A stretch of DNA of 64,000 bases from a phage: assembly GCA_025812035.1 (NCBI GenBank), contig GCA_025812035.1_4719.1; one strand, given 5' to 3'. The notes beneath the pieces are model-generated. The model worked only from the letters and a program-made list of their open reading frames with translations. It made no database searches and was not told the DNA's origin. Positions 2,714-46,284 of this stretch are shown here, one piece after another. The translations under genes were made by a program, and so were the position numbers. Position 1 is the stretch's first letter; each line of letters begins with the position of its first letter.

Positions 2714-3082
2714 TTATTTATCGGGGTCTGGAAAATAGTAAAATCGCCAATGCAAAATAGAAATCGCATTTCTTATTTGATTCGCACGAACACAGCGTCC
2801 GAGAAAGGATTTGTAGCAAGAATCGCAATCCATAAACAACTCGTGGCTCGATTTCATCAAAACCACGATGTCTCTTATATACGAATTGCAGTACTCGATA
2901 AACGGATCTGTATCGTACGTATATTTCCTCGCACTACCTATCCCCAACTCTCTATTTAACTCACGACAATTTATCATGAGCTTCACATAACGGATAAGCC
3001 GAACGAAGTCACGTAAATTACGATTAAACCAATATCGATACCAAAATGACTGTATGCCCCAAACAGTTCTATTTAACTTCAT
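2714..3082 (-). CDS. hypothetical protein (122 aa)
   Basis: complete ORF, minus-strand array. Confidence 0.5.
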   Translation of the reverse strand: MKLNRTVWGIQSFWYRYWFNRNLRDFVRLIRYVKLMINCRELNRELGIGSARKYTYDTDPFIEYCNSYIRDIVVLMKSSHELFMDCDSCYKSFLGRCVRANQIRNAISILHWRFYYFPDPDK

Positions 3083-3710
3083 TGATACCCTCTATTAGTT
3101 GTACGGCAACTTCTCTTTCGGTGTTATAAAAGAACTTGCGATGGAACTGAACAAGAAGTTTTTCGAATTTACATTGAACGATCTTTTTACGTTCGATGTG
3201 ACCCAGGGAGAGCAAAGCACCCATGCAACGTACTGCTTGTTCGAGAACTTGTTTCGCGGTATCGTGATCGTCAGGCAACGGTAAATCTTCCTCATCATCT
3301 TTAGCGATAAGGCGTCTGATGATGTTATCAATACGTATCTCATCACCGTTAATAAAAGCCCCCTTCTCCCAGTCATCGAATCGTTGATGGATTCGACGTT
3401 GTAAGTTGGCCCTGTCTTCCATTAACTCTTTCAACTGGTTTTCTAAGTTGAATACGGTACGGCGATCTGTTTCAGTGAATCTTTCCGACTCTTTGTACCA
3501 CCAATCATTACGTGCCAGTAAATCATTGACACGCGATACCATCCGACGACATTCACCAACAAGTCCATCACCATTCGGTAGCTCTGTACCGAAATAGCAT
3601 TTGTATTTATAACGCATAACACGGATTAAATGTTTTGCTAGAAAACCTTGTTTTTCCAGTTTCTTCTTCAGTTGCGTGTATTTCTCTTCTTTTGTTTCCA
3701 TTAATTCCAT
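3069..3710 (-). CDS. hypothetical protein (213 aa)
   Basis: complete ORF, minus-strand array. Confidence 0.55.
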   Translation of the reverse strand: MELMETKEEKYTQLKKKLEKQGFLAKHLIRVMRYKYKCYFGTELPNGDGLVGECRRMVSRVNDLLARNDWWYKESERFTETDRRTVFNLENQLKELMEDRANLQRRIHQRFDDWEKGAFINGDEIRIDNIIRRLIAKDDEEDLPLPDDHDTAKQVLEQAVRCMGALLSLGHIERKKIVQCKFEKLLVQFHRKFFYNTEREVAVQLIEGINEVK

Positions 3711-4099
3711 GATGTTGTACCTCGTTCAGCAATCAGGAGGGTCGTGGTTGTGCTTTTCACTAATCTATTAAAGTCTTGATATATCCGCCTGAGGGATGAT
3801 TTCAAATCGCAATAACGACTGAAATAAGCCTTCAGGTCATCTTTTGTCACCGTCTCCGTATTTATTTTCGTAGAAACACCGAGATCGATAAACTCTTTTC
3901 TTAATTGGGATAATTCGTCAAGAAGTCGATGATGGCTTAGATAAATAATAGATTTATCGGATAATAACTCGCCGGTTATCCGGCTCTGGCGTTCATCGAG
4001 ATATTGGAGCCGCCATTCAATTCGCTTGCGTAATTTATCAAGTAAATCAACAAAAGCGGTATAGCTGTTAACGGCTAGGTTAACTTGACTCGCTATCAT
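3701..4099 (-). CDS. hypothetical protein (132 aa)
   Basis: complete ORF, minus-strand array. Confidence 0.5.
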   Translation of the reverse strand: MIASQVNLAVNSYTAFVDLLDKLRKRIEWRLQYLDERQSRITGELLSDKSIIYLSHHRLLDELSQLRKEFIDLGVSTKINTETVTKDDLKAYFSRYCDLKSSLRRIYQDFNRLVKSTTTTLLIAERGTTSWN

Positions 4100-4446
4100 T
4101 CCACATTCTCCGTTATATGCTTTAAACTGTTACGTATACTTCTCAATCGATGGTTAAATCCGGAACGATAACATTTCCGTTCAAACCGTGCCGCTCGCGA
4201 TTTATTCGCCTGATGAAGCTGTTCGTTCACCTGCGACGCTATACGTAAACGCTCTAATAAAGACCTCAGCCGAACGACAACCAACGGCTGTTCTTTCACC
4301 TTCTCTAGTTTGAGTAAATTGTCAACACGAAACTTTATTTCGATAATCTGATTCCTGTTTTTGCGGTACTGATGAATATACCAACATCGACGAAAATAGG
4401 CGATGCTAAACATAGGGTAGGTCCTTTTCAACGCCACCTCCAACAA
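4096..4446 (-). CDS. hypothetical protein (116 aa)
   Basis: complete ORF, minus-strand array. Confidence 0.5.
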   Translation of the reverse strand: MLEVALKRTYPMFSIAYFRRCWYIHQYRKNRNQIIEIKFRVDNLLKLEKVKEQPLVVVRLRSLLERLRIASQVNEQLHQANKSRAARFERKCYRSGFNHRLRSIRNSLKHITENVE

Positions 4447-4657
4447 TAAAACGGATTAGGTGCTTTATGGTATTTATAAATACCCACTTTCTTCCGTCTG
4501 CCTTTACCCGGTCCTCGTTTAATACGTTTGTTATAAACACGACCCAAATATCGAGTGACGATAGATCGGGATAAATACATCGGATCGATATAATCCAGAG
4601 TACCCGCTTCTGTTTCTTCGAGACATTGCATACGTAACTCCTCTTTCCTCTAAGAAG

Positions 4658-4864
4658 TCAATCCAGCATAAGCCATGGCATCGCTTTCGCGATAGAATCC
4701 ACCGCAGCATTTGCTATCCTTCGTTCAGTCATTGGCACCACGTGCGCAACGAACCGTTTCCCTTTATTGCAACCTTTCTTGTGTTTTCCTTTGACTAAAC
4801 GAACACCGATCATGTCGTTGATAACATGATTTAGTATGTAGCGCTGTAGAGAATTAATCATCAC
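4658..4864 (-). CDS. hypothetical protein (68 aa)
   Basis: complete ORF, minus-strand array. Confidence 0.35.
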   Translation of the reverse strand: MMINSLQRYILNHVINDMIGVRLVKGKHKKGCNKGKRFVAHVVPMTERRIANAAVDSIAKAMPWLMLD

Positions 4865-5012
4865 TTTTACTCCAGGCAGAGAAGACCCTCGGTTTTAGTT
4901 CTATCTGTCCGCATATCCAGGTGTATCTCCATTTACCTTTACGAGGACCTTTCTTATTTTTAACGCCTATCAGAATACGATAGGGATATGACCAAGTCAT
5001 TCTAAACCCCCC

Positions 5013-5306
5013 TTAATGCAGCCGCTTCTCGAAGTCAGTTTTAAGAAGCACCACTCTTTCATCGATGGTATCCAACGCTTTCAGTAATGATTTACGCTGT
5101 TCCTTTGTAAGCATCTCCGTCTTAAGACGCTTGTTAATTGTTACTTTAAGCTGCACCGCTAGAGTCTGAACAAGCACGCTATCAGCTTCTATCTCGTAAC
5201 TATTTTCTGGCGGTGATAGCACCTCGCTAACGCCAGCGAGATAACAACCTATAACGGTCATTCGTCTATCCATTGCTTCCAGCAACTCAGAACTTACTTC
5301 ATCCAC
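5013..5306 (-). CDS. hypothetical protein (97 aa)
   Basis: complete ORF, minus-strand array. Confidence 0.45.
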   Translation of the reverse strand: MDEVSSELLEAMDRRMTVIGCYLAGVSEVLSPPENSYEIEADSVLVQTLAVQLKVTINKRLKTEMLTKEQRKSLLKALDTIDERVVLLKTDFEKRLH

Positions 5307-5375
5307 GATAACCCTCCGCGAGTTTCTCTATTTCGTTCTGTGTTGCGGGTGGATACACCCACCCGCATCGTTAAT

Positions 5376-6395
5376 TTACACCGCCACCTTAGCCTTGATA
5401 GCCGGATGCGATTGATATCCAACGAACACAAAGTCTTCGTAACGGTAATCCGTAATACTTTCCGGTTTACGTACGATCGTTAGCTTCGGTAATGGATACG
5501 GCTCACGACTGAGCTGCTCTTTAACCTGTTCGAAGTGGTTGTGATAGATGTGACAATCTCCACCAGTCCACACGAACTCACCGACGTCCATATTCAGCTG
5601 TTGGGCAAGCATATGCGTTAACAACGAATATGAGGCGATGTTAAAGCTCCAACCCAAGAGCGTGTCGCACGAACGCTGATAAAGCTGACAGGATAAAGCA
5701 CGTGTTGGTACGTTATGTGTGTTCAACCAAAGTTCTATTTCACTACGTCGTACATCATCCATAACCCACTGGGTTCTTAGTACGTCGTTGCGTCGGACAT
5801 AATCAACGCGTTCATCGATCGTGAGTTCGTGGGTATAGAACTGATAGAAACTGTGGCACGGGGCGAGGTGCATGTCGTCTAAATCGCCTACGTTCCACGC
5901 GCTAACGATGATCCGTCGAGAATCAGGATCTTCTTTAAGCTGACGCATCACGTTTGCAATCTGATCGTGATGTTTAACATACACGAGGTGTTTTAGCATA
6001 CCGTCGTTAAGAATACCACAATACTCGTAACCGCGTTGCATCAACTCGCGAGTACGTTCTGTATCGTGCGGAACAACCACTTTGTAGTCAATCCATTCCC
6101 GCCATTGGCTACCGTAAATCGGTCCTAGATTCCCTTCTTCGTCAGCCCACTCATTCCAAATACGAACACCGTTATCTTGAAGATAAGCAACGTTTGTATC
6201 ACCATTAAGAAACCAGAGCAGTTCGTGGATAACGCTCTTAAGGTGAATCTTCTTAGTGGTTACCAGCGGGAATCCTTTCTTCAAGTCAAAACGCATTTGA
6301 CGTCCGAATACCGAACGGGTACCAGTACCTGTGCGGTCGGCTTTATCGCGACCATTATCCATGATGTCTTGCAAAAGGTCCAAATACTGTTTCAT
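5376..6395 (-). CDS. thyA: thymidylate synthase (ThyA type) with two in-frame insertions
   Basis: N-terminus [46 protein letters not shown], catalytic LAPCH, C-terminal LPKL..KPESI; 339 aa versus about 264 aa for E. coli ThyA. Confidence 0.9.
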
Positions 6396-42958: not shown

Positions 42959-43183
42959 TTAGCAATGGTTGTTAGTTGCTTCTATTTCGTCAAGATAAGG
43001 TTCTACGTCATCGCCCTCCACGAATTCGTTGAACCAGCAGTCAATGGTAGAAATAACCGGTGACTGGTGTTCACATTTCTTAGATACCTTAAAAGGTACG
43101 TTATTATCCATCATACCGAGTTCGGGTCGAAAACGCCCGAAATGTTTCGCAGTCCAAATGTCTGGGACGATATGGTTGTTCAT
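42959..43183 (-). CDS. RNA polymerase beta' N-terminal fragment, exon 3 (begins MNNHIVP..)
   Basis: MNNHIVP..ELGMMDNNV parallels beta' MAVHVP..ALMMSTNNI directly after the catalytic DGD; preceded by G at 43184. Confidence 0.6.
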   Translation of the reverse strand: MNNHIVPDIWTAKHFGRFRPELGMMDNNVPFKVSKKCEHQSPVISTIDCWFNEFVEGDDVEPYLDEIEATNNHC

Positions 43184-43574
43184 CGTGGTGTTCAGCATGA
43201 GTCGCTACCTCATACCCGCAGCTTTACCTGCAGCTTCCGGTGTTACCGGAATGTCCAGAATACATCTTATCCATATTCCAAATGGAACGTAGGACTTCCG
43301 CGCTGGATCTCGCTTGAGACCACGTATTCGTTGAACCTGCGTTGTTTCACATTCTTGCAAACAAGAATGCCGTATTGCTACGCAACAACCAGGCTGCTGA
43401 TCGAACATTGTCATGTACGGTAGGCATCCCCGAAGGGACTGTCATTGAAGCCGCGTACATCCGCTACCTTGTTTCTACCTTATCGGTTCCTCTTACGAGG
43501 CGTAGCGGCCTTAGCCCTTCCCAGCAATTCACGGAATCCAAGCTCTTCCTTTCGGAAGGCAGGGCCTATGATTA
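43184..43574 (-). ncRNA. candidate ORF-less self-splicing intron 2 (group I-like)
   Basis: P-like GAAUUGCUGGGAAGGG (43515..43530) and Q-like GAUCAGCAGCC (43392..43402); starts after U, ends with G; several local hairpins; P1 and P7 not resolved by eye. Confidence 0.45.
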
Positions 43575-43587
43575 AGCGTCACCGTCG
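43575..43587 (-). CDS. RNA polymerase beta' micro-exon (13 nt, c-GAC-GGU-GAC-GCU, encodes DGDA)
   Basis: only placement that rebuilds NADF-DGD-A-MNNHIVP in frame with U at both 5' splice sites and G at both intron 3' ends. Confidence 0.5.
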
Positions 43588-45028
43588 CTTACGTGCACCG
43601 ACGTTTATTAACTCATGGTTATCCACTGAAATACGGCGTTAGGGAAATAATCCTTCTTGCCGCGTTTTGAGATTTGCAATGCCATATTACTCGGAGACAA
43701 TCTGTAATGCCATGCTGCTTCATCGATAGAACTAAACTTCTTTGTTTCGCCGTTATCAAAGATGATTTTCAACGCTAGTTTAGGTAAATCGTCTTCCGTT
43801 TCTACTAGTTCGAAAGAATCGATATTCTCTGCCAGCGTTAACGGATCAACAGGTAATATCAGCCAACCAGCACGCTGCAATCCTCCACGTAGACTAATTT
43901 GTTTATTCAACGCAGGGGTAGCCATGCCAACTAACTTAGCAGCCAGCTTGCGGTCTTTAATATAAAGACGATAATCTCCGGTATTATTAATAGCATACAC
44001 ACCAAAGTTATTGAACGATACCTTTCCAGCATCGGAACTAGTAAAGCCTACAAAGTCGTGGCTGTCGGTAGCCACGTCGTATTTAAATGCTAATGGCTTG
44101 TTTCGACTGCCGCTAAGATACTTCTTGGCTGTAGATACCGATATGTTGAGATATCGTCCAATAGCATTCAAACTTTCTAGTTCGATGATTTCTCCTGTCA
44201 ATATGTCCTTTAACCGAACATTACCCATCGGTATTGGTGGTTTACCGACATAACCCAATTCACGATATGCGTGTTTCAAGTTATCTGAATCAGTAGCCCA
44301 TTCCAAATTTTCTAGTCTGTTATCCCAACGCACTCCATTAAGATGATTAGGGACACGACGGATTATACCTGACGTCGGATCTGGGTTAAATGTTTCAAGG
44401 ACGATCTGATGATGGTATTTCACTTTGTTGTTCCTAGTGAAAGCGCGATAGTTGTTTTTGCCCGACTTGGGTGGTTCAGTACGAAACAACACTGTCAGAC
44501 TAGACACATCTACTATCGTACCGTTCTTATTAACAACGATACCATCAAAACCATTAACAGGACGATAATCAGACAAACAATCTTCAGAAATTGCCTGTCC
44601 AACTAAAGGTTCACTCAATTTGACCTCCTTTATAAAAGAAGTCGGTGCACGTAATTATCGACTATATCTTCATCCTCGTTGCGAGGAGTCTCCCGTTTTG
44701 GTCTGTGTTTAACAGAGCCTACTCTACTCGACATCGCGTCTTTCGATAGTCTGTGAGCACACATCTTAACGAACATTCGTGGATTCCTAAGCAGGTGAAC
44801 GTTCTTGTTGAGATGCTTCGCTGCGGATTATTCCCGTCCTACCTCTTTTACCATACCCAGTTCATTACGCTGGCCCTCATCTGTGTCACCACGATGAGTT
44901 GGTGTGTAGTCCGATTACAGAAACTTCCCGTCAATTAGAGAGTTTTAACTACGTTCCTGTTACCAGAAACCCGACTCCGACGATATCAATTAAATCAACG
45001 TAAATTATTGATTTAATTGAAGAAACTG
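43588..45028 (-). mobile_element. group I intron 1 with embedded HNH homing endonuclease gene
   Basis: IGS GAGUCGG (44971..44977) pairs with exon end CCGACUU with terminal U-G; P AAUUGACGGGAAG (44924..44936), Q AAUCCGCAGC (44820..44829), R ACAGACUAUCG (44744..44754), S AAGAUAUAGUCG (44659..44670); 12-bp stem 44641..44652 with 43591..43602 loops out the ORF; ends with G at 43588. Confidence 0.7.
43608..44618 (-). CDS. HNH homing endonuclease (intron-encoded), UUG start
   Basis: HHQIVLETF..NHLNGVRWDNRLENLEWATDSDNLKHA HNH motif; AAGGAGGT RBS before UUG; lies entirely inside intron 1. Confidence 0.75.
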   Translation of the reverse strand: MSEPLVGQAISEDCLSDYRPVNGFDGIVVNKNGTIVDVSSLTVLFRTEPPKSGKNNYRAFTRNNKVKYHHQIVLETFNPDPTSGIIRRVPNHLNGVRWDNRLENLEWATDSDNLKHAYRELGYVGKPPIPMGNVRLKDILTGEIIELESLNAIGRYLNISVSTAKKYLSGSRNKPLAFKYDVATDSHDFVGFTSSDAGKVSFNNFGVYAINNTGDYRLYIKDRKLAAKLVGMATPALNKQISLRGGLQRAGWLILPVDPLTLAENIDSFELVETEDDLPKLALKIIFDNGETKKFSSIDEAAWHYRLSPSNMALQISKRGKKDYFPNAVFQWITMS

Positions 45029-46284
45029 AAGTCGGCATTATAACCTTTCAAGATCATCACGCTTAACCCGATGGTGTTATCCTGCGGATCGCGTTTAACC
45101 TTGGTGATTTCAAGACATTGGTTACTGCTTCGGTCAAGTGATGGATTTCGAACAAAACCACACACAATCCCATCAAACGGTGTATCAGCAATAAGCTCAT
45201 CGTGCAGCTCGCTCATCATCGGATGATAATTACGGACATGTTCCGCAACGAACGCACGTGCTGCTCTTGGTGAATAACCACGATGGAATAACTTGGATTG
45301 GATATGTTCTTTATTGGTTAATGTAAATGGCGCGTATGGGAAATGCAGATGATAATAACGATGGTTCGCTGTTATCGAACTGATTACGGTACGCGTGGTG
45401 AATGGATGTAATGTACCTAATATGTTTTTACGTGTGATACCTTTCTTCTTACCGATGAACTCATCGAAAATCGCCGAGTGGTACTGCAGCAGCTTCAGTT
45501 GTACTTTCGCCATCCAGTTTTCTTTCTTTCTGGCGCTCAAAGGTGTTGTTGGGTGATAGATACTATTCAATGTACCGATAGCATCGATCGCACCTTCCAT
45601 TTTGCTATCTGCATAACGACCGGTTGGTGTATTCTCGATAACGAACATCATGGCGGCAGGAAAACTGATATACTGGCTGAAGAACTTATCGCGATGAATG
45701 CGGGTGAATTCTCGTAGCGTATCAACTTTCTCCGTGTTCTTCGGTCCGCGTAACGTAGGTCCTTTATACAAGATCTCCATGATGCGATCGAAGTTCTGTA
45801 TAAAGCTATTTATCCCACGTCGTATCCCGAATACATCGAATTGCTGCTCCAGATAGTTCTTGAGTTCGATGGGTCGTTTTACGTTTGGACGGTAACTGGC
45901 ATCAATGAGCCACGTCATCGTTTCAAAGCTTTTGATATTCAACTCGCTTGCCAGCACGAGATGGACCAACGGGTTAATAAACGCATCAATTCCTTCAGGA
46001 ACACGCGCCCAAACCGTCGAACGAATCTCTTGTTCTGCTGGGTAGGTTACAACCGTTTTACAGTTTGGACACACCGTGCCAAGCAGCTCACCACGATTGT
46101 AGAAACCACATCCACATTGTGGTGTGATATCCAACGTATCGCTGGAGTAAACACGGGTGATAAAACTGTTTAATTTCTTCTTCTCTTCGACGACTTTTGT
46201 GTCGTAATCATTCAACAAAATAGGCGTAAAAGGAAGTTCTGCGAGCTGTCTATCGAAACTCACGATATCGAGCATGATGGCCAT
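45029..46284 (-). CDS. RNA polymerase beta' N-terminal fragment, exon 1 (ends ..YNADF)
   Basis: zinc finger CGCGFYNRGELLGTVCPNCK and ..NPSL.R...Q.....IGL..ILKGYNADF parallel E. coli beta' up to NADF; unspliced frame stops 5 codons after NADF. Confidence 0.75.

What the first reader, a model, noticed from the sequence alone, without database searches (positions are those of the whole stretch)
43184..43574. Second, ORF-less intron of about 390 nt immediately after the micro-exon
The interval between the DGDA micro-exon and the MNNHIVP exon has no long ORF but contains group I-like P (GAAUUGCUGGGAAGGG) and Q (GAUCAGCAGCC) elements and several stable hairpins (for example CCGCUAC/GUAGCGG and UUCCGGUGUUACCGGAA). 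Its P1 and P7 pairings could not be resolved by eye, so its class is uncertain.
Basis: inference. Interest (0 to 1): 0.7.

Follow-up and report, generated by a model that had tools for sequence, protein, structure and literature searches.

The report
Unannotated second self-splicing intron
The 391 bases are a genuine but unannotated self-splicing (group I) intron that, together with a neighbouring intron, leaves only a 13-base mini-exon encoding the catalytic aspartates of a giant phage's own RNA polymerase.

Summary
Confirmed. The window is a Goslar-like E. coli jumbo phage (98% identity). [quoted passage not shown]

It reads: exon 1 (…KGYNADF) / intron 1 with an HNH endonuclease / 13-nt micro-exon C GAC GGU GAC GCU / intron 2 (43574..43184, minus strand, 391 nt) / exon 3 (MNNHIVP…).

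- **Exact boundaries.** A natural relative (L135) has no intron at this site and reads GAC GGU GAC GCG AUG AAC. The spliced protein aligns without a break to phiKZ gp55 (PDB 7OGP, E = 1.7e-74).
- **Group I fold.** It has a U·G pair at the 5' splice site, P2–P9.2, the P3/P7 pseudoknot and a terminal G. Across eight homologues, 97.8% of cells pair and 32 of 102 pairs change on both sides (13.5 ± 2.6 in shuffles).
- **Rfam.** The group I model misses intron 2 itself but hits its 71–86%-identical relatives at 26–28 bits.
- **No conserved ORF.**

Relatives carry one, two or three introns within about 40 nt, and the same intron lineage sits at two sites 18 nt apart. It is a new member of a known kind (phiKZ gp55 intron; Twort orf142 tandem introns). 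Splicing itself was not tested.

The parts
45029..46284 (-). Exon 1 of the nvRNAP beta'-N gene (phiKZ gp55 homologue). It ends ...AAU GCC GAC UU (…KGYNAD + the first two bases of F).
   Evidence: ORF; sequence. Intron 1's guide sequence pairs with CCGACUU, placing the splice site after U45029. The RefSeq Goslar annotation ends this CDS in the intron.
43588..45028 (-). Intron 1: a group I intron (1441 nt) carrying an HNH/NUMOD1 homing-endonuclease ORF. It ends with G43588.
   Evidence: Rfam RF00028 scores 47.8 bits, E = 1.6e-10, at 45019..44642. ORF-less alleles in L006 and L142 end GUCGAUAACAG| directly before CGACGG.
44971..44982 (-). Internal guide sequence of intron 1, 5'-CGUCG·GAGUCGG. GAGUCGG pairs with exon 1 CCGACUU (P1, with U·G at the splice site). 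CGUCG pairs with the first five bases of the micro-exon, CGACG (P10).
   Evidence: Read. In L006 the exon reads CAGAUUU and the guide reads GGAUCUG, two compensatory changes.
43608..44618 (-). Intron 1 ORF, 336 aa, an I-HmuI-like HNH endonuclease.
   Evidence: Pfam HNH_3 (E = 1.9e-7) and NUMOD1 (E = 4.4e-5). It lies in the loop of a 12-bp stem, 44652..44641 with 43602..43591.
43575..43587 (-). 13-nt micro-exon C GAC GGU GAC GCU. It completes the Phe codon and encodes D-G-D-A, the Mg2+-binding aspartates of the NADFDGD motif.
   Evidence: L142 has CGACGGGGAUGCU, with synonymous changes only. It is contiguous with AUGAAC in L135. Pfam RNA_pol_Rpb1_2 spans residues 371-428 of the spliced product.
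43184..43574 (-). [quoted passage not shown] The 5' splice site follows U43575 and the terminal G is 43184.
43564..43577 (-). P1 of intron 2: GCU|U (43577..43574) pairs with AGGC (43567..43564). U43575·G43566 is the splice-site wobble. UCAU (43571..43568) can pair with AUGA at the start of exon 3 (P10).
   Evidence: Predicted unaided by RNAalifold. The pair at columns 14/21 changes U-A to A-U in L5_B. P10 is by inspection only.
43542..43560 (-). P2 hairpin with a GAAA tetraloop.
   Evidence: Four of seven pairs change on both sides.
43530..43536 (-). P3 5' strand UUCCGUG. It pairs with CGCGGAA at 43302..43296 and is followed by J3/4 AAU.
   Evidence: seven pairs, invariant, 100% paired. Rfam makes the same assignment for L5_A and L5_B.
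43395..43526 (-). P4 (UGCUGG 43526..43521 with UCAGCA 43400..43395), enclosing P5 (GGGC with GUUC) and a P5 extension of about 100 nt. The extension comprises P5a CCGCUAC/GUAGCGG, a GUAA-capped hairpin, P5b GUACG/CGUAC and a UUCG-capped hairpin.
   Evidence: P5a has three compensatory pairs and P5b has two.
43335..43394 (-). P6 (GC with GU) plus a window-specific 56-nt P6 extension. All seven relatives have a 20-nt hairpin here.
43324..43329 (-). P7 5' strand GAAUAC (R element GUUCAACGAAUAC, 43336..43324). It pairs with GUAUUC at 43263..43258 (S element AAGAUGUAUUC, 43268..43258).
   Evidence: three of six pairs covary and the first G-C and A-U pairs are invariant; in 46 family members the first pair is G-C in 42 of 43.
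43306..43321 (-). Single hairpin GGUCUC-AAGC-GAGAUC between P7 and P3', at the P7.1/P7.2 position of IA introns.
   Evidence: All six pairs change on both sides.
43269..43295 (-). P8: GUCC with GGAU enclosing GUUCC with GGAAU. The internal loop CCUACG…UAUGG resembles the 11-nt GAAA-tetraloop receptor.
   Evidence: two compensatory pairs. The receptor resemblance is by inspection.
43195..43251 (-). P9 (UUCCGGU-AAC-ACCGGAA), P9.1 (CUGCAG/CUGCGG) and P9.2 (GUAUGAG-GUAGCGA-CUCAUGC), followed by the tail UGAACACCACG.
   Evidence: The module is shared with T2P, LucasX and L6_X and is widespread in metagenomes.
42959..43183 (-). Exon 3, AUG AAC AAC CAU… (MNNHIVPD… to the stop codon). RefSeq Goslar annotates it as the separate 'hypothetical protein' gp185.

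Best explanation

**Proposed mechanism (inferred from the fold).** The RNA folds into the standard group I core. The guide sequence AGGC pairs with GCU|U, so that U43575 forms a wobble pair with G43566. A free guanosine bound at the invariant G-C pair of P7 attacks after U43575. The freed 3' OH of the micro-exon then attacks after the terminal G43184. This joins …GAC GGU GAC GCU to AUG AAC… and restores NADFDGDAMNNH.

**Role of the micro-exon.** Intron 1 is removed in the same way. Its guide sequence holds the end of exon 1 and the first five bases of the micro-exon. The 13-nt micro-exon therefore serves as P10 for the upstream ribozyme and as P1 for the downstream one.

**Spread (inferred).** Intron 2 has no endonuclease of its own. 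It most likely spreads by co-conversion with the HNH intron 13 nt away, or by rare ectopic insertion after a GCU.

**What is shown and what is not.** The boundaries, the fold and the homology are shown here. The chemistry and the mode of spread are inferred.
For: **Boundaries**
- The uninterrupted Goslar-like allele L135 reads GAC UUU GAC GGU GAC GCG AUG AAC AAC CAU, and its exon 1 is 98.4% identical to the window's.
- Uninterrupted homologues in 201phi2-1 and PhiPA3 are colinear across the junction.
- The spliced 497-aa product aligns at residues 21-476 to phiKZ gp55 (PDB 7OGP_A, E = 1.7e-74). The alignment runs through …lkgynadfdgdamnnhivpd….
- Pfam RNA_pol_Rpb1_2 spans both junctions.
- The micro-exon shows only synonymous changes.

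**Fold**
- RNAalifold found P1 to P9.2 on eight homologues without guidance.
- With the P7 pseudoknot added, 97.8% of cells pair. Thirty-two of 102 pairs change on both sides, against 13.5 +/- 2.6 in shuffles (0 of 500) and 1-3 in the slid controls.
- A 3'-half covariance model recovers 48 full-length relatives in 100 metagenome loci. In these, 93.2% of cells pair and 36 of 41 pairs are compensatory.
- The same model also hits the Rfam-positive T2P intron of the phiKZ group at 51.7 bits.

**Family membership**
- Rfam RF00028 aligns the homologues L5_B and L5_A over the full model, at 28.0 and 26.4 bits (E = 4.8e-5 and 1.4e-4). Its P1-P9 assignments match mine.

**No conserved ORF**.
Against: - Rfam RF00028 gives no hit on intron 2 itself, even at E <= 10. 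The relatives score below the 50-bit gathering threshold.
- P1 uses only three exon bases and P10 only three or four, so splice-site recognition looks weak.
- P3, P4 and P9.1 never vary, so they are uninformative.
- The 5'-half covariation rests on three lineages only.
- One homologue, L5_B, has C rather than U at the splice site.
- No cDNA, proteomic or in vitro splicing data were available.
Confidence: 0.9

Rival explanations
1. One composite intron: 45028..43184 is removed in a single splicing event (obligatory exon skipping), and the DGDA stretch is not an exon.
For: Exon skipping by tandem group I introns is documented for Twort orf142 and for Coxiella 23S rRNA (PMC10136302). The Rfam hit covers only intron 1's core.
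Against: - Skipping would join GAC UU to AUG A…, which reads GAC UUA UGA. That is a frameshift and a stop, and it loses the catalytic DGD.
- Intron 1's guide sequence CGUCG pairs with the first bases of the micro-exon.
- The alleles L006, L142 and L130 have intron 1 without its ORF, ending exactly before CGACGG.
- L135 has DGDA contiguous with MNNH.
- The micro-exon shows only synonymous changes.
Confidence: 0.03
2. A decayed, splicing-dead relic. The gene would be permanently split: gp247 and gp185 are made as separate polypeptides and the catalytic loop is supplied otherwise or lost.
For: RefSeq annotates separate CDSs. Rfam does not recognise intron 2. P1 is short.
Against: - Thirty-two compensatory pairs across the lineages show ongoing selection on the fold.
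- U at -1, the terminal G and the first two P7 pairs are conserved.
- The NADFDGD aspartates are needed for RNA polymerase catalysis (established knowledge). In this gene they are encoded only in the micro-exon.
- The exon 3 ORF has no independent context: its ATG-proximal codons continue the gp55 alignment.
Confidence: 0.04
3. A real group I intron that is not autonomous. Efficient excision in vivo would need a protein cofactor, prior removal of intron 1, or co-folding with intron 1.
For: P1 (3+1 bp) and P10 are very short. The micro-exon is shared with intron 1's P10. There is only one hairpin where IA introns have P7.1 and P7.2.
Against: In L005 and L006 the same intron works beside quite different upstream neighbours, and L135 carries its L5_A-type paralogue as the gene's only intron. 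A specific partner is therefore not required. The complete core is present.
Confidence: 0.12
4. A different kind of intervening element: a group II intron, an intein-like coding insert or a translational bypass.
For: None found.
Against: - No Rfam family of any kind, group II included, gives a meaningful match in this interval; the only hit there at E <= 10 is a 10.2-bit chance-level match to PhotoRC-I.
- There is no conserved ORF.
- The group I helices covary.
- At 391 nt and with stops in all frames, read-through or bypass is excluded.
Confidence: 0.01

Closest known systems
Group I intron in phiKZ nvRNAP gp55 (PHIKZ055 + PHIKZ056.1, with endonuclease gp56), seen here in the Phikzvirus phage T2P
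   Same: - It sits in the same gene, in the same few codons around NADFDGD.
- It has the same P (AAUUGCUGGGA) and Q (AAUCAGCAGCC) elements.
- It shares the P9-P9.2 tail; my 3'-half model hits T2P at 51.7 bits.
- Introns in phiKZ gp55 are reported in the literature (PMC11512511).
   Different: - T2P has a single intron, inserted 20 nt upstream (…LKAPN|ADFDGD).
- It scores 80.4 bits with Rfam.
- It has two hairpins between P7 and P3'.
- It has the canonical P7, GACUA/UAGUC.
- It has no micro-exon.
Staphylococcus phage Twort orf142, introns 2 and 3 (subgroup IA2), flanking a 23-nt exon
   Same: Tandem phage group I introns separated by a very short exon within one protein-coding gene (PMC10136302).
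   Different: - The exon here is 13 nt and encodes the catalytic residues.
- In the window the two introns are unrelated in sequence, and one carries an HNH gene. The L005 allele, with two paralogous introns, is closer to Twort.
- Exon skipping here would be lethal to the product.
- Splicing was not tested here.
PhiPA3 gp210 intron in a virion RNAP subunit gene
   Same: A group I intron with an HNH endonuclease in an RNA polymerase gene of a nucleus-forming jumbo phage (PMC11620839). It is a model for what intron 1's endonuclease may do.
   Different: It lies in a different RNAP gene. It is a single intron that carries the endonuclease, whereas intron 2 has no ORF.
[quoted passage not shown]
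   Same: [quoted passage not shown]
   Different: They occur in rRNA or in a different gene, and the exons are longer or of unreported size. No population of alleles with one to three introns has been described for them.

Membership tests
Group I intron | The 5' splice site follows a U that forms a U·G wobble with the internal guide sequence in P1 | tested here: met
   U43575·G43566. Alignment columns 13/22 are U·G in 7 of 8 homologues and C-G in 1. The neighbouring pair changes U-A to A-U.
Group I intron | The intron ends with a guanosine (omega G) | tested here: met
   G43184. A terminal G is present in all eight homologues.
Group I intron | Core of P3-P8 and P4-P6 domains, with the P3/P7 pseudoknot | tested here: met
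   All helices are present. 97.8% of cells pair and 32 of 102 pairs are compensatory (0 of 500 shuffles reach this). P7 has three covarying pairs. The 3' half is confirmed on 46 distinct sequences.
Group I intron | Conserved P, Q, R and S sequence elements, and a G-C pair in P7 that binds guanosine | tested here: met
   P is AAUUGCUGGGAA, Q is AUCAGCAGC, R is GUUCAACGAAUAC and S is AAGAUGUAUUC. The first P7 pair is G-C in 8 of 8 homologues and in 42 of 43 family members. The third P7 pair is A-U instead of the usual C-G.
Group I intron | Score at or above the Rfam RF00028 gathering threshold (50 bits) | tested here: not met
   There is no hit on intron 2 at E <= 10. The homologues L5_B and L5_A score 28.0 and 26.4 bits. 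This is a detection threshold, not a structural criterion.
Group I intron | Guanosine-dependent self-splicing | not testable with these tools
   This needs an in vitro transcript plus GTP and Mg2+, or cDNA from infected cells.
Subgroup IA (IA2, the usual phage type) | Extra helices P7.1 and P7.2 between P7 and P3' | tested here: inconclusive
   There is one well-supported hairpin (43321..43306, all six pairs compensatory) where two are expected. The relatives T2P and intron 1 have 49-55 nt here. No subgroup-specific models were available.
Mobile group I intron with its own homing endonuclease | An endonuclease ORF in a peripheral loop | tested here: not met
   No ORF is conserved among the eight homologues. 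The HNH ORF belongs to intron 1.
Group II intron | Six-domain fold with domain V; Rfam group II models | tested here: not met
   No Rfam family of any kind, group II included, gives a meaningful match in this interval.
Tandem group I introns flanking a mini-exon (Twort orf142 type) | Two independent group I ribozymes separated by a short coding exon | tested here: met
   Intron 1 scores 47.8 bits with RF00028 and has its own P1 and P10. Intron 2 is as described above. The exon between them is 13 nt.
Tandem group I introns flanking a mini-exon (Twort orf142 type) | Alternative exon-skipping splicing | not testable with these tools
   This needs RT-PCR. Skipping would give GAC UUA UGA, a premature stop.

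The most novel reading that the evidence does not exclude
The NADFDGD-coding stretch of this polymerase gene may be a battleground in which an ORF-less intron lineage moves on its own between neighbouring sites.

**Observations**
- The same lineage (71-86% identical) sits after YNA(GCU)| in L005 and L135, and after DGDA(GCU)| in the window, Goslar, L005 and L006.
- The two sites are 18 nt apart, have unrelated 3' exons, and share only …A(C/U)GCU with the 3-nt P1.
- Unoccupied sites carry GCC, GCA or GCG instead of GCU.

**Reading**
This pattern is what reverse splicing, or another guide-sequence-directed ectopic insertion, would produce. Repeated insertion could then build arrays of up to three ribozymes with 13-nt micro-exons. 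Such arrays might shield the catalytic-site DNA from rival homing endonucleases.
Probability: 0.25. Interest if true: 0.7.

Novelty: new member of a known kind. Interest (0 to 1): 0.55.

Why it matters
**Annotation.** The public Goslar records split this essential polymerase subunit into three unrelated-looking CDSs and miss the 13-nt exon that carries the catalytic aspartates. The true product is a 497-aa protein that needs two splicing events.

**RNA biology.** A 13-nt exon serving two ribozymes at once is shorter than the 23-nt and 34-nt exons cited for tandem group I introns (PMC10136302). Relatives with three ribozymes within about 40 nt are extreme cases for co-transcriptional folding and for splice-site fidelity.

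**Evolution.** Near-identical phages carry one, two or three introns, and the same intron lineage occupies two sites. [quoted passage not shown] It could also be used to test intron-based competition among nucleus-forming phages (PMC11620839).

Tried and rejected
- **Rfam.** I ran it at the gathering threshold, at E <= 10 on 2.3 kb and on 471 nt, and at E <= 0.05 on the whole window. It finds only intron 1. It is not sensitive enough for intron 2, probably because of the roughly 100-nt P5 extension, the long P6 and the variant P7.
- **15-nt scan of IMG/VR** with TTCCGUGAAUUGCUG.
- **blastn of intron 2 against GenBank phages** found only Goslar.
- **My first P3 guess,** GGAUUCCG with CGGAA(G)UCC. 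I dropped it for UUCCGUG/CGCGGAA plus P8 GUCC/GGAU, which RNAalifold, covariation and Rfam's alignment of the relatives all support.
- **An extension of P7 by C-G across a bulged U.** It is not kept in L5_A or L5_B.
- **A longer P1 using micro-exon bases -6..-9.** It clashes with P2 and is broken in L142.
- **The 69-aa sense ORF inside the intron.** It is not conserved.
- **P10.** It could not be scored on the alignment because its register shifts between lineages.
- **The Twort orf142 paper (PMC22036)** is not held, so I took the exon sizes from PMC10136302.

Full report
**Source and gene.** The window is 98.3% identical to Escherichia phage vB_EcoM_Goslar, a nucleus-forming jumbo phage. On the minus strand, directly after the nuclear-shell (chimallin) gene, lies a 423-codon ORF that ends …LKGYNADFSFFN*. 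RefSeq calls it 'RNA polymerase beta subunit'. It annotates an Rfam group I hit after it, then an HNH endonuclease, then a 79-aa 'hypothetical protein' beginning MLNTTMNNHIVP.

**The observation.** One hairpin was quoted in plus-strand orientation. The interval has no conserved ORF: its 69-aa sense ORF is missing or altered in the homologues. The interval folds better than shuffled sequence (z = -3.7).

**Exon structure.**
- Exon 1 must end GAC UU at 45029.
- Intron 1's internal guide, 5'-CGUCG·GAGUCGG (44982..44971), pairs with CCGACUU through a terminal U·G. It also pairs with CGACG, the five bases that follow G43588.
- The next 13 bases, C GAC GGU GAC GCU (43587..43575), complete Phe and encode DGDA.
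- After 391 bases that end in G43184 comes AUG AAC AAC CAU (MNNH).
- The joined 497-aa protein matches Pfam RNA_pol_Rpb1_2 across both junctions.
- It aligns at residues 21-476 with phiKZ gp55 in the solved nvRNAP structure (7OGP_A, E = 1.7e-74). There, lkgynadfdgdamnnhivpd lies against LKAPNADFDGDQLNLTLMPD.
- Uninterrupted homologues in 201phi2-1, PhiPA3 and many others are colinear over the same stretch.

**Natural alleles fix the boundaries.** Scans of IMG/VR and of metagenomes gave five more Goslar-like genomes whose exons are 96-98% identical.

| Allele | Arrangement at this locus |
|---|---|
| L135 | No intron at the finding's site; reads GAC UUU GAC GGU GAC GCG AUG AAC AAC CAU |
| L006, L142, L130 | Intron 1 without its HNH ORF and without the 12-bp stem that encloses the ORF in the window. 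It ends GUCGAUAACAG| directly before CGACGG, then the micro-exon and intron 2. A third intron lies further upstream, leaving a second 13-nt micro-exon AUAAUGCAGAUUU |
| L142 | Micro-exon CGACGGGGAUGCU, with synonymous changes only |
| L005 | No HNH intron. A paralogue of intron 2 (L5_A, 71-79% identical) follows YNA(GCU)|, then an 18-nt micro-exon GAC UUU GAC GGU GAU GCC, then an 85-86%-identical copy at the finding's site (L5_B) |

These alleles exclude the single-intron reading.

**The fold.** RNAalifold on eight homologues with short exon flanks (alignment A2) predicted, without guidance, P1 with the splice-site U·G, P2, P3 (UUCCGUG/CGCGGAA), P4, P5 with a large extension, P6, one hairpin between P7 and P3', P8, P9, P9.1 and P9.2.

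I then added the P7 pseudoknot, GAAUAC 43329..43324 with GUAUUC 43263..43258. With it:
- 97.8% of cells pair.
- 32 of 102 pairs change on both sides, against 13.5 ± 2.6 in shuffles (0 of 500) and 1-3 when the partners are slid.
- P7 itself has three compensatory pairs, and its first two pairs are invariant.

P3, P4 and P9.1 never vary, so they neither support nor contradict the fold. The window's P6 carries a private 56-nt extension where all relatives have a 20-nt hairpin. This is a clean swap of a peripheral element.

**Relation to recognised group I introns.**
- Rfam RF00028 does not report intron 2 itself.
- It does align L5_B and L5_A end to end, at 28.0 and 26.4 bits (E = 4.8e-5 and 1.4e-4), with the same helix assignments as mine.
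- T2P (a Phikzvirus) and LucasX carry Rfam-positive introns (80.4 and 54.7 bits) in the same gene. They are inserted at LKAPN|ADF and LKA|PNADF, and they have the same P and Q sequences and the same 3' tail.
- A covariance model of the 3' half of the intron-2 lineage (R1) hits T2P (51.7 bits) and the third intron of L006 (64 bits).
- R1 also gives 48 full-length matches in 100 metagenome loci. In these, 93.2% of cells pair and 36 of 41 pairs are compensatory.
- In that wider family the third P7 pair is usually C-G. Intron 2's A-U is a minority state and may partly explain the Rfam miss.
- At least one relative sits in a DNA-polymerase-like gene.

**Mechanism.** I infer ordinary two-step group I splicing: attack by an exogenous G after U43575, then exon ligation after G43184. 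The micro-exon acts as P10 partner for intron 1 and as P1 partner for intron 2. These two roles use different bases, CGACG and GCU, so the two ribozymes can act independently and in either order. Skipping the micro-exon would give GAC UUA UGA, a premature stop.

Having no endonuclease, intron 2 probably travels by co-conversion with the I-HmuI-like HNH intron 13 nt away. The concept of collaborative or co-conversion spread is described in PMC3984707.

**Unexplained or weak points.**
- P1 involves only GCU, and P10 only three or four pairs.
- L5_B has C-G instead of U·G at the splice site.
- The subgroup is only IA-like.
- No expression data were available.

**Literature.** Introns in RNAP genes of phiKZ-like phages are known: phiKZ gp55 and gp180, PhiPA3 gp65-66 and gp210 (PMC11512511, PMC11077065, PMC11620839). 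Tandem group I introns around short exons are known from Twort (23 nt) and Coxiella (34 nt) (PMC10136302), and a small exon is reported in phiNIT1 (PMC11878797). In the held library I found no description of a second intron or a micro-exon in the Goslar gene.

**Verdict.** The finding is correct. The element is an unannotated group I intron, a new member of a known kind, in an unusually crowded intron hot spot.

Noticed in passing
L006 5244..6365; L142 427..1553 (minus strand); L130: Three group I introns lie within about 40 nt of coding sequence, separated by two 13-nt micro-exons (AUAAUGCAGAUUU and CGACGGUGACGCU). The extra upstream intron has P1 GGGU/GCCC and P10 CAUUA/UAAUG, and scores 30.3 bits with Rfam.
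   Followed up: partly
L005 5252..5976: Two paralogous ORF-less introns flank an 18-nt micro-exon encoding DFDGDA. The downstream copy has C, not U, at the 5' splice site (GCC|A paired with UGGC). That would be a C-G pair where group I introns almost always have U·G.
   Followed up: partly
L005 and L135 (site YNA|DF) versus window 43575/43574 (site DGDA|MN): The same intron lineage occupies two sites 18 nt apart that share only …A(C/U)GCU| upstream. The Ala codon is GCU (once GCC) where an intron follows, and GCC, GCA or GCG where none does.
   Followed up: partly
window 43392..43337: A 56-nt P6 extension is unique to this window. Goslar and the six other relatives have an unrelated 20-nt hairpin at the same spot, while the flanks are otherwise almost identical. 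No source for the 56 nt was found among the fetched loci.
   Followed up: partly
window 44652..44641 and 43602..43591: A perfect 12-bp stem (ACGUGCACCGAC with GUCGGUGCACGU) brackets the HNH ORF of intron 1. ORF-less alleles lack both the stem and the ORF, as if the whole hairpin with its gene were one insertion module.
   Followed up: partly
window 44977..44971 versus L006 about 5672..5680: Intron 1's guide sequence has co-evolved with synonymous exon changes: CCGACUU/GAGUCGG in the window against CAGAUUU/GGAUCUG in L006 and L142.
   Followed up: yes
window 43293..43288 and 43275..43271; L2 at 43553..43550: P8 carries CCUACG…UAUGG, one base away from the classic 11-nt GAAA-tetraloop receptor CCUAAG…UAUGG, and the P2 loop is GAAA. 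This suggests an L2-P8 tertiary contact. L5_A lacks the motif.
   Followed up: no
Forty-eight of the first 100 loci hold a full 3'-half match to the intron-2 model, including one in a DNA-polymerase-like gene (L166). This is a large intron family that is poorly covered by Rfam.
   Followed up: partly
L001 (RefSeq NC_048170) 3017..6305: The Goslar reference annotates gp247, HNH gp186 and gp185 as separate CDSs with no join. The polymerase subunit is therefore truncated in the databases, and its catalytic DGD is unannotated.
   Followed up: yes
L002 1720..1833 (Pseudomonas phage T2P): A 37-codon CDS annotated as 'HNH homing endonuclease' lies inside the T2P intron upstream of the ribozyme core. 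It is probably a remnant of the phiKZ gp56-type gene.
   Followed up: no
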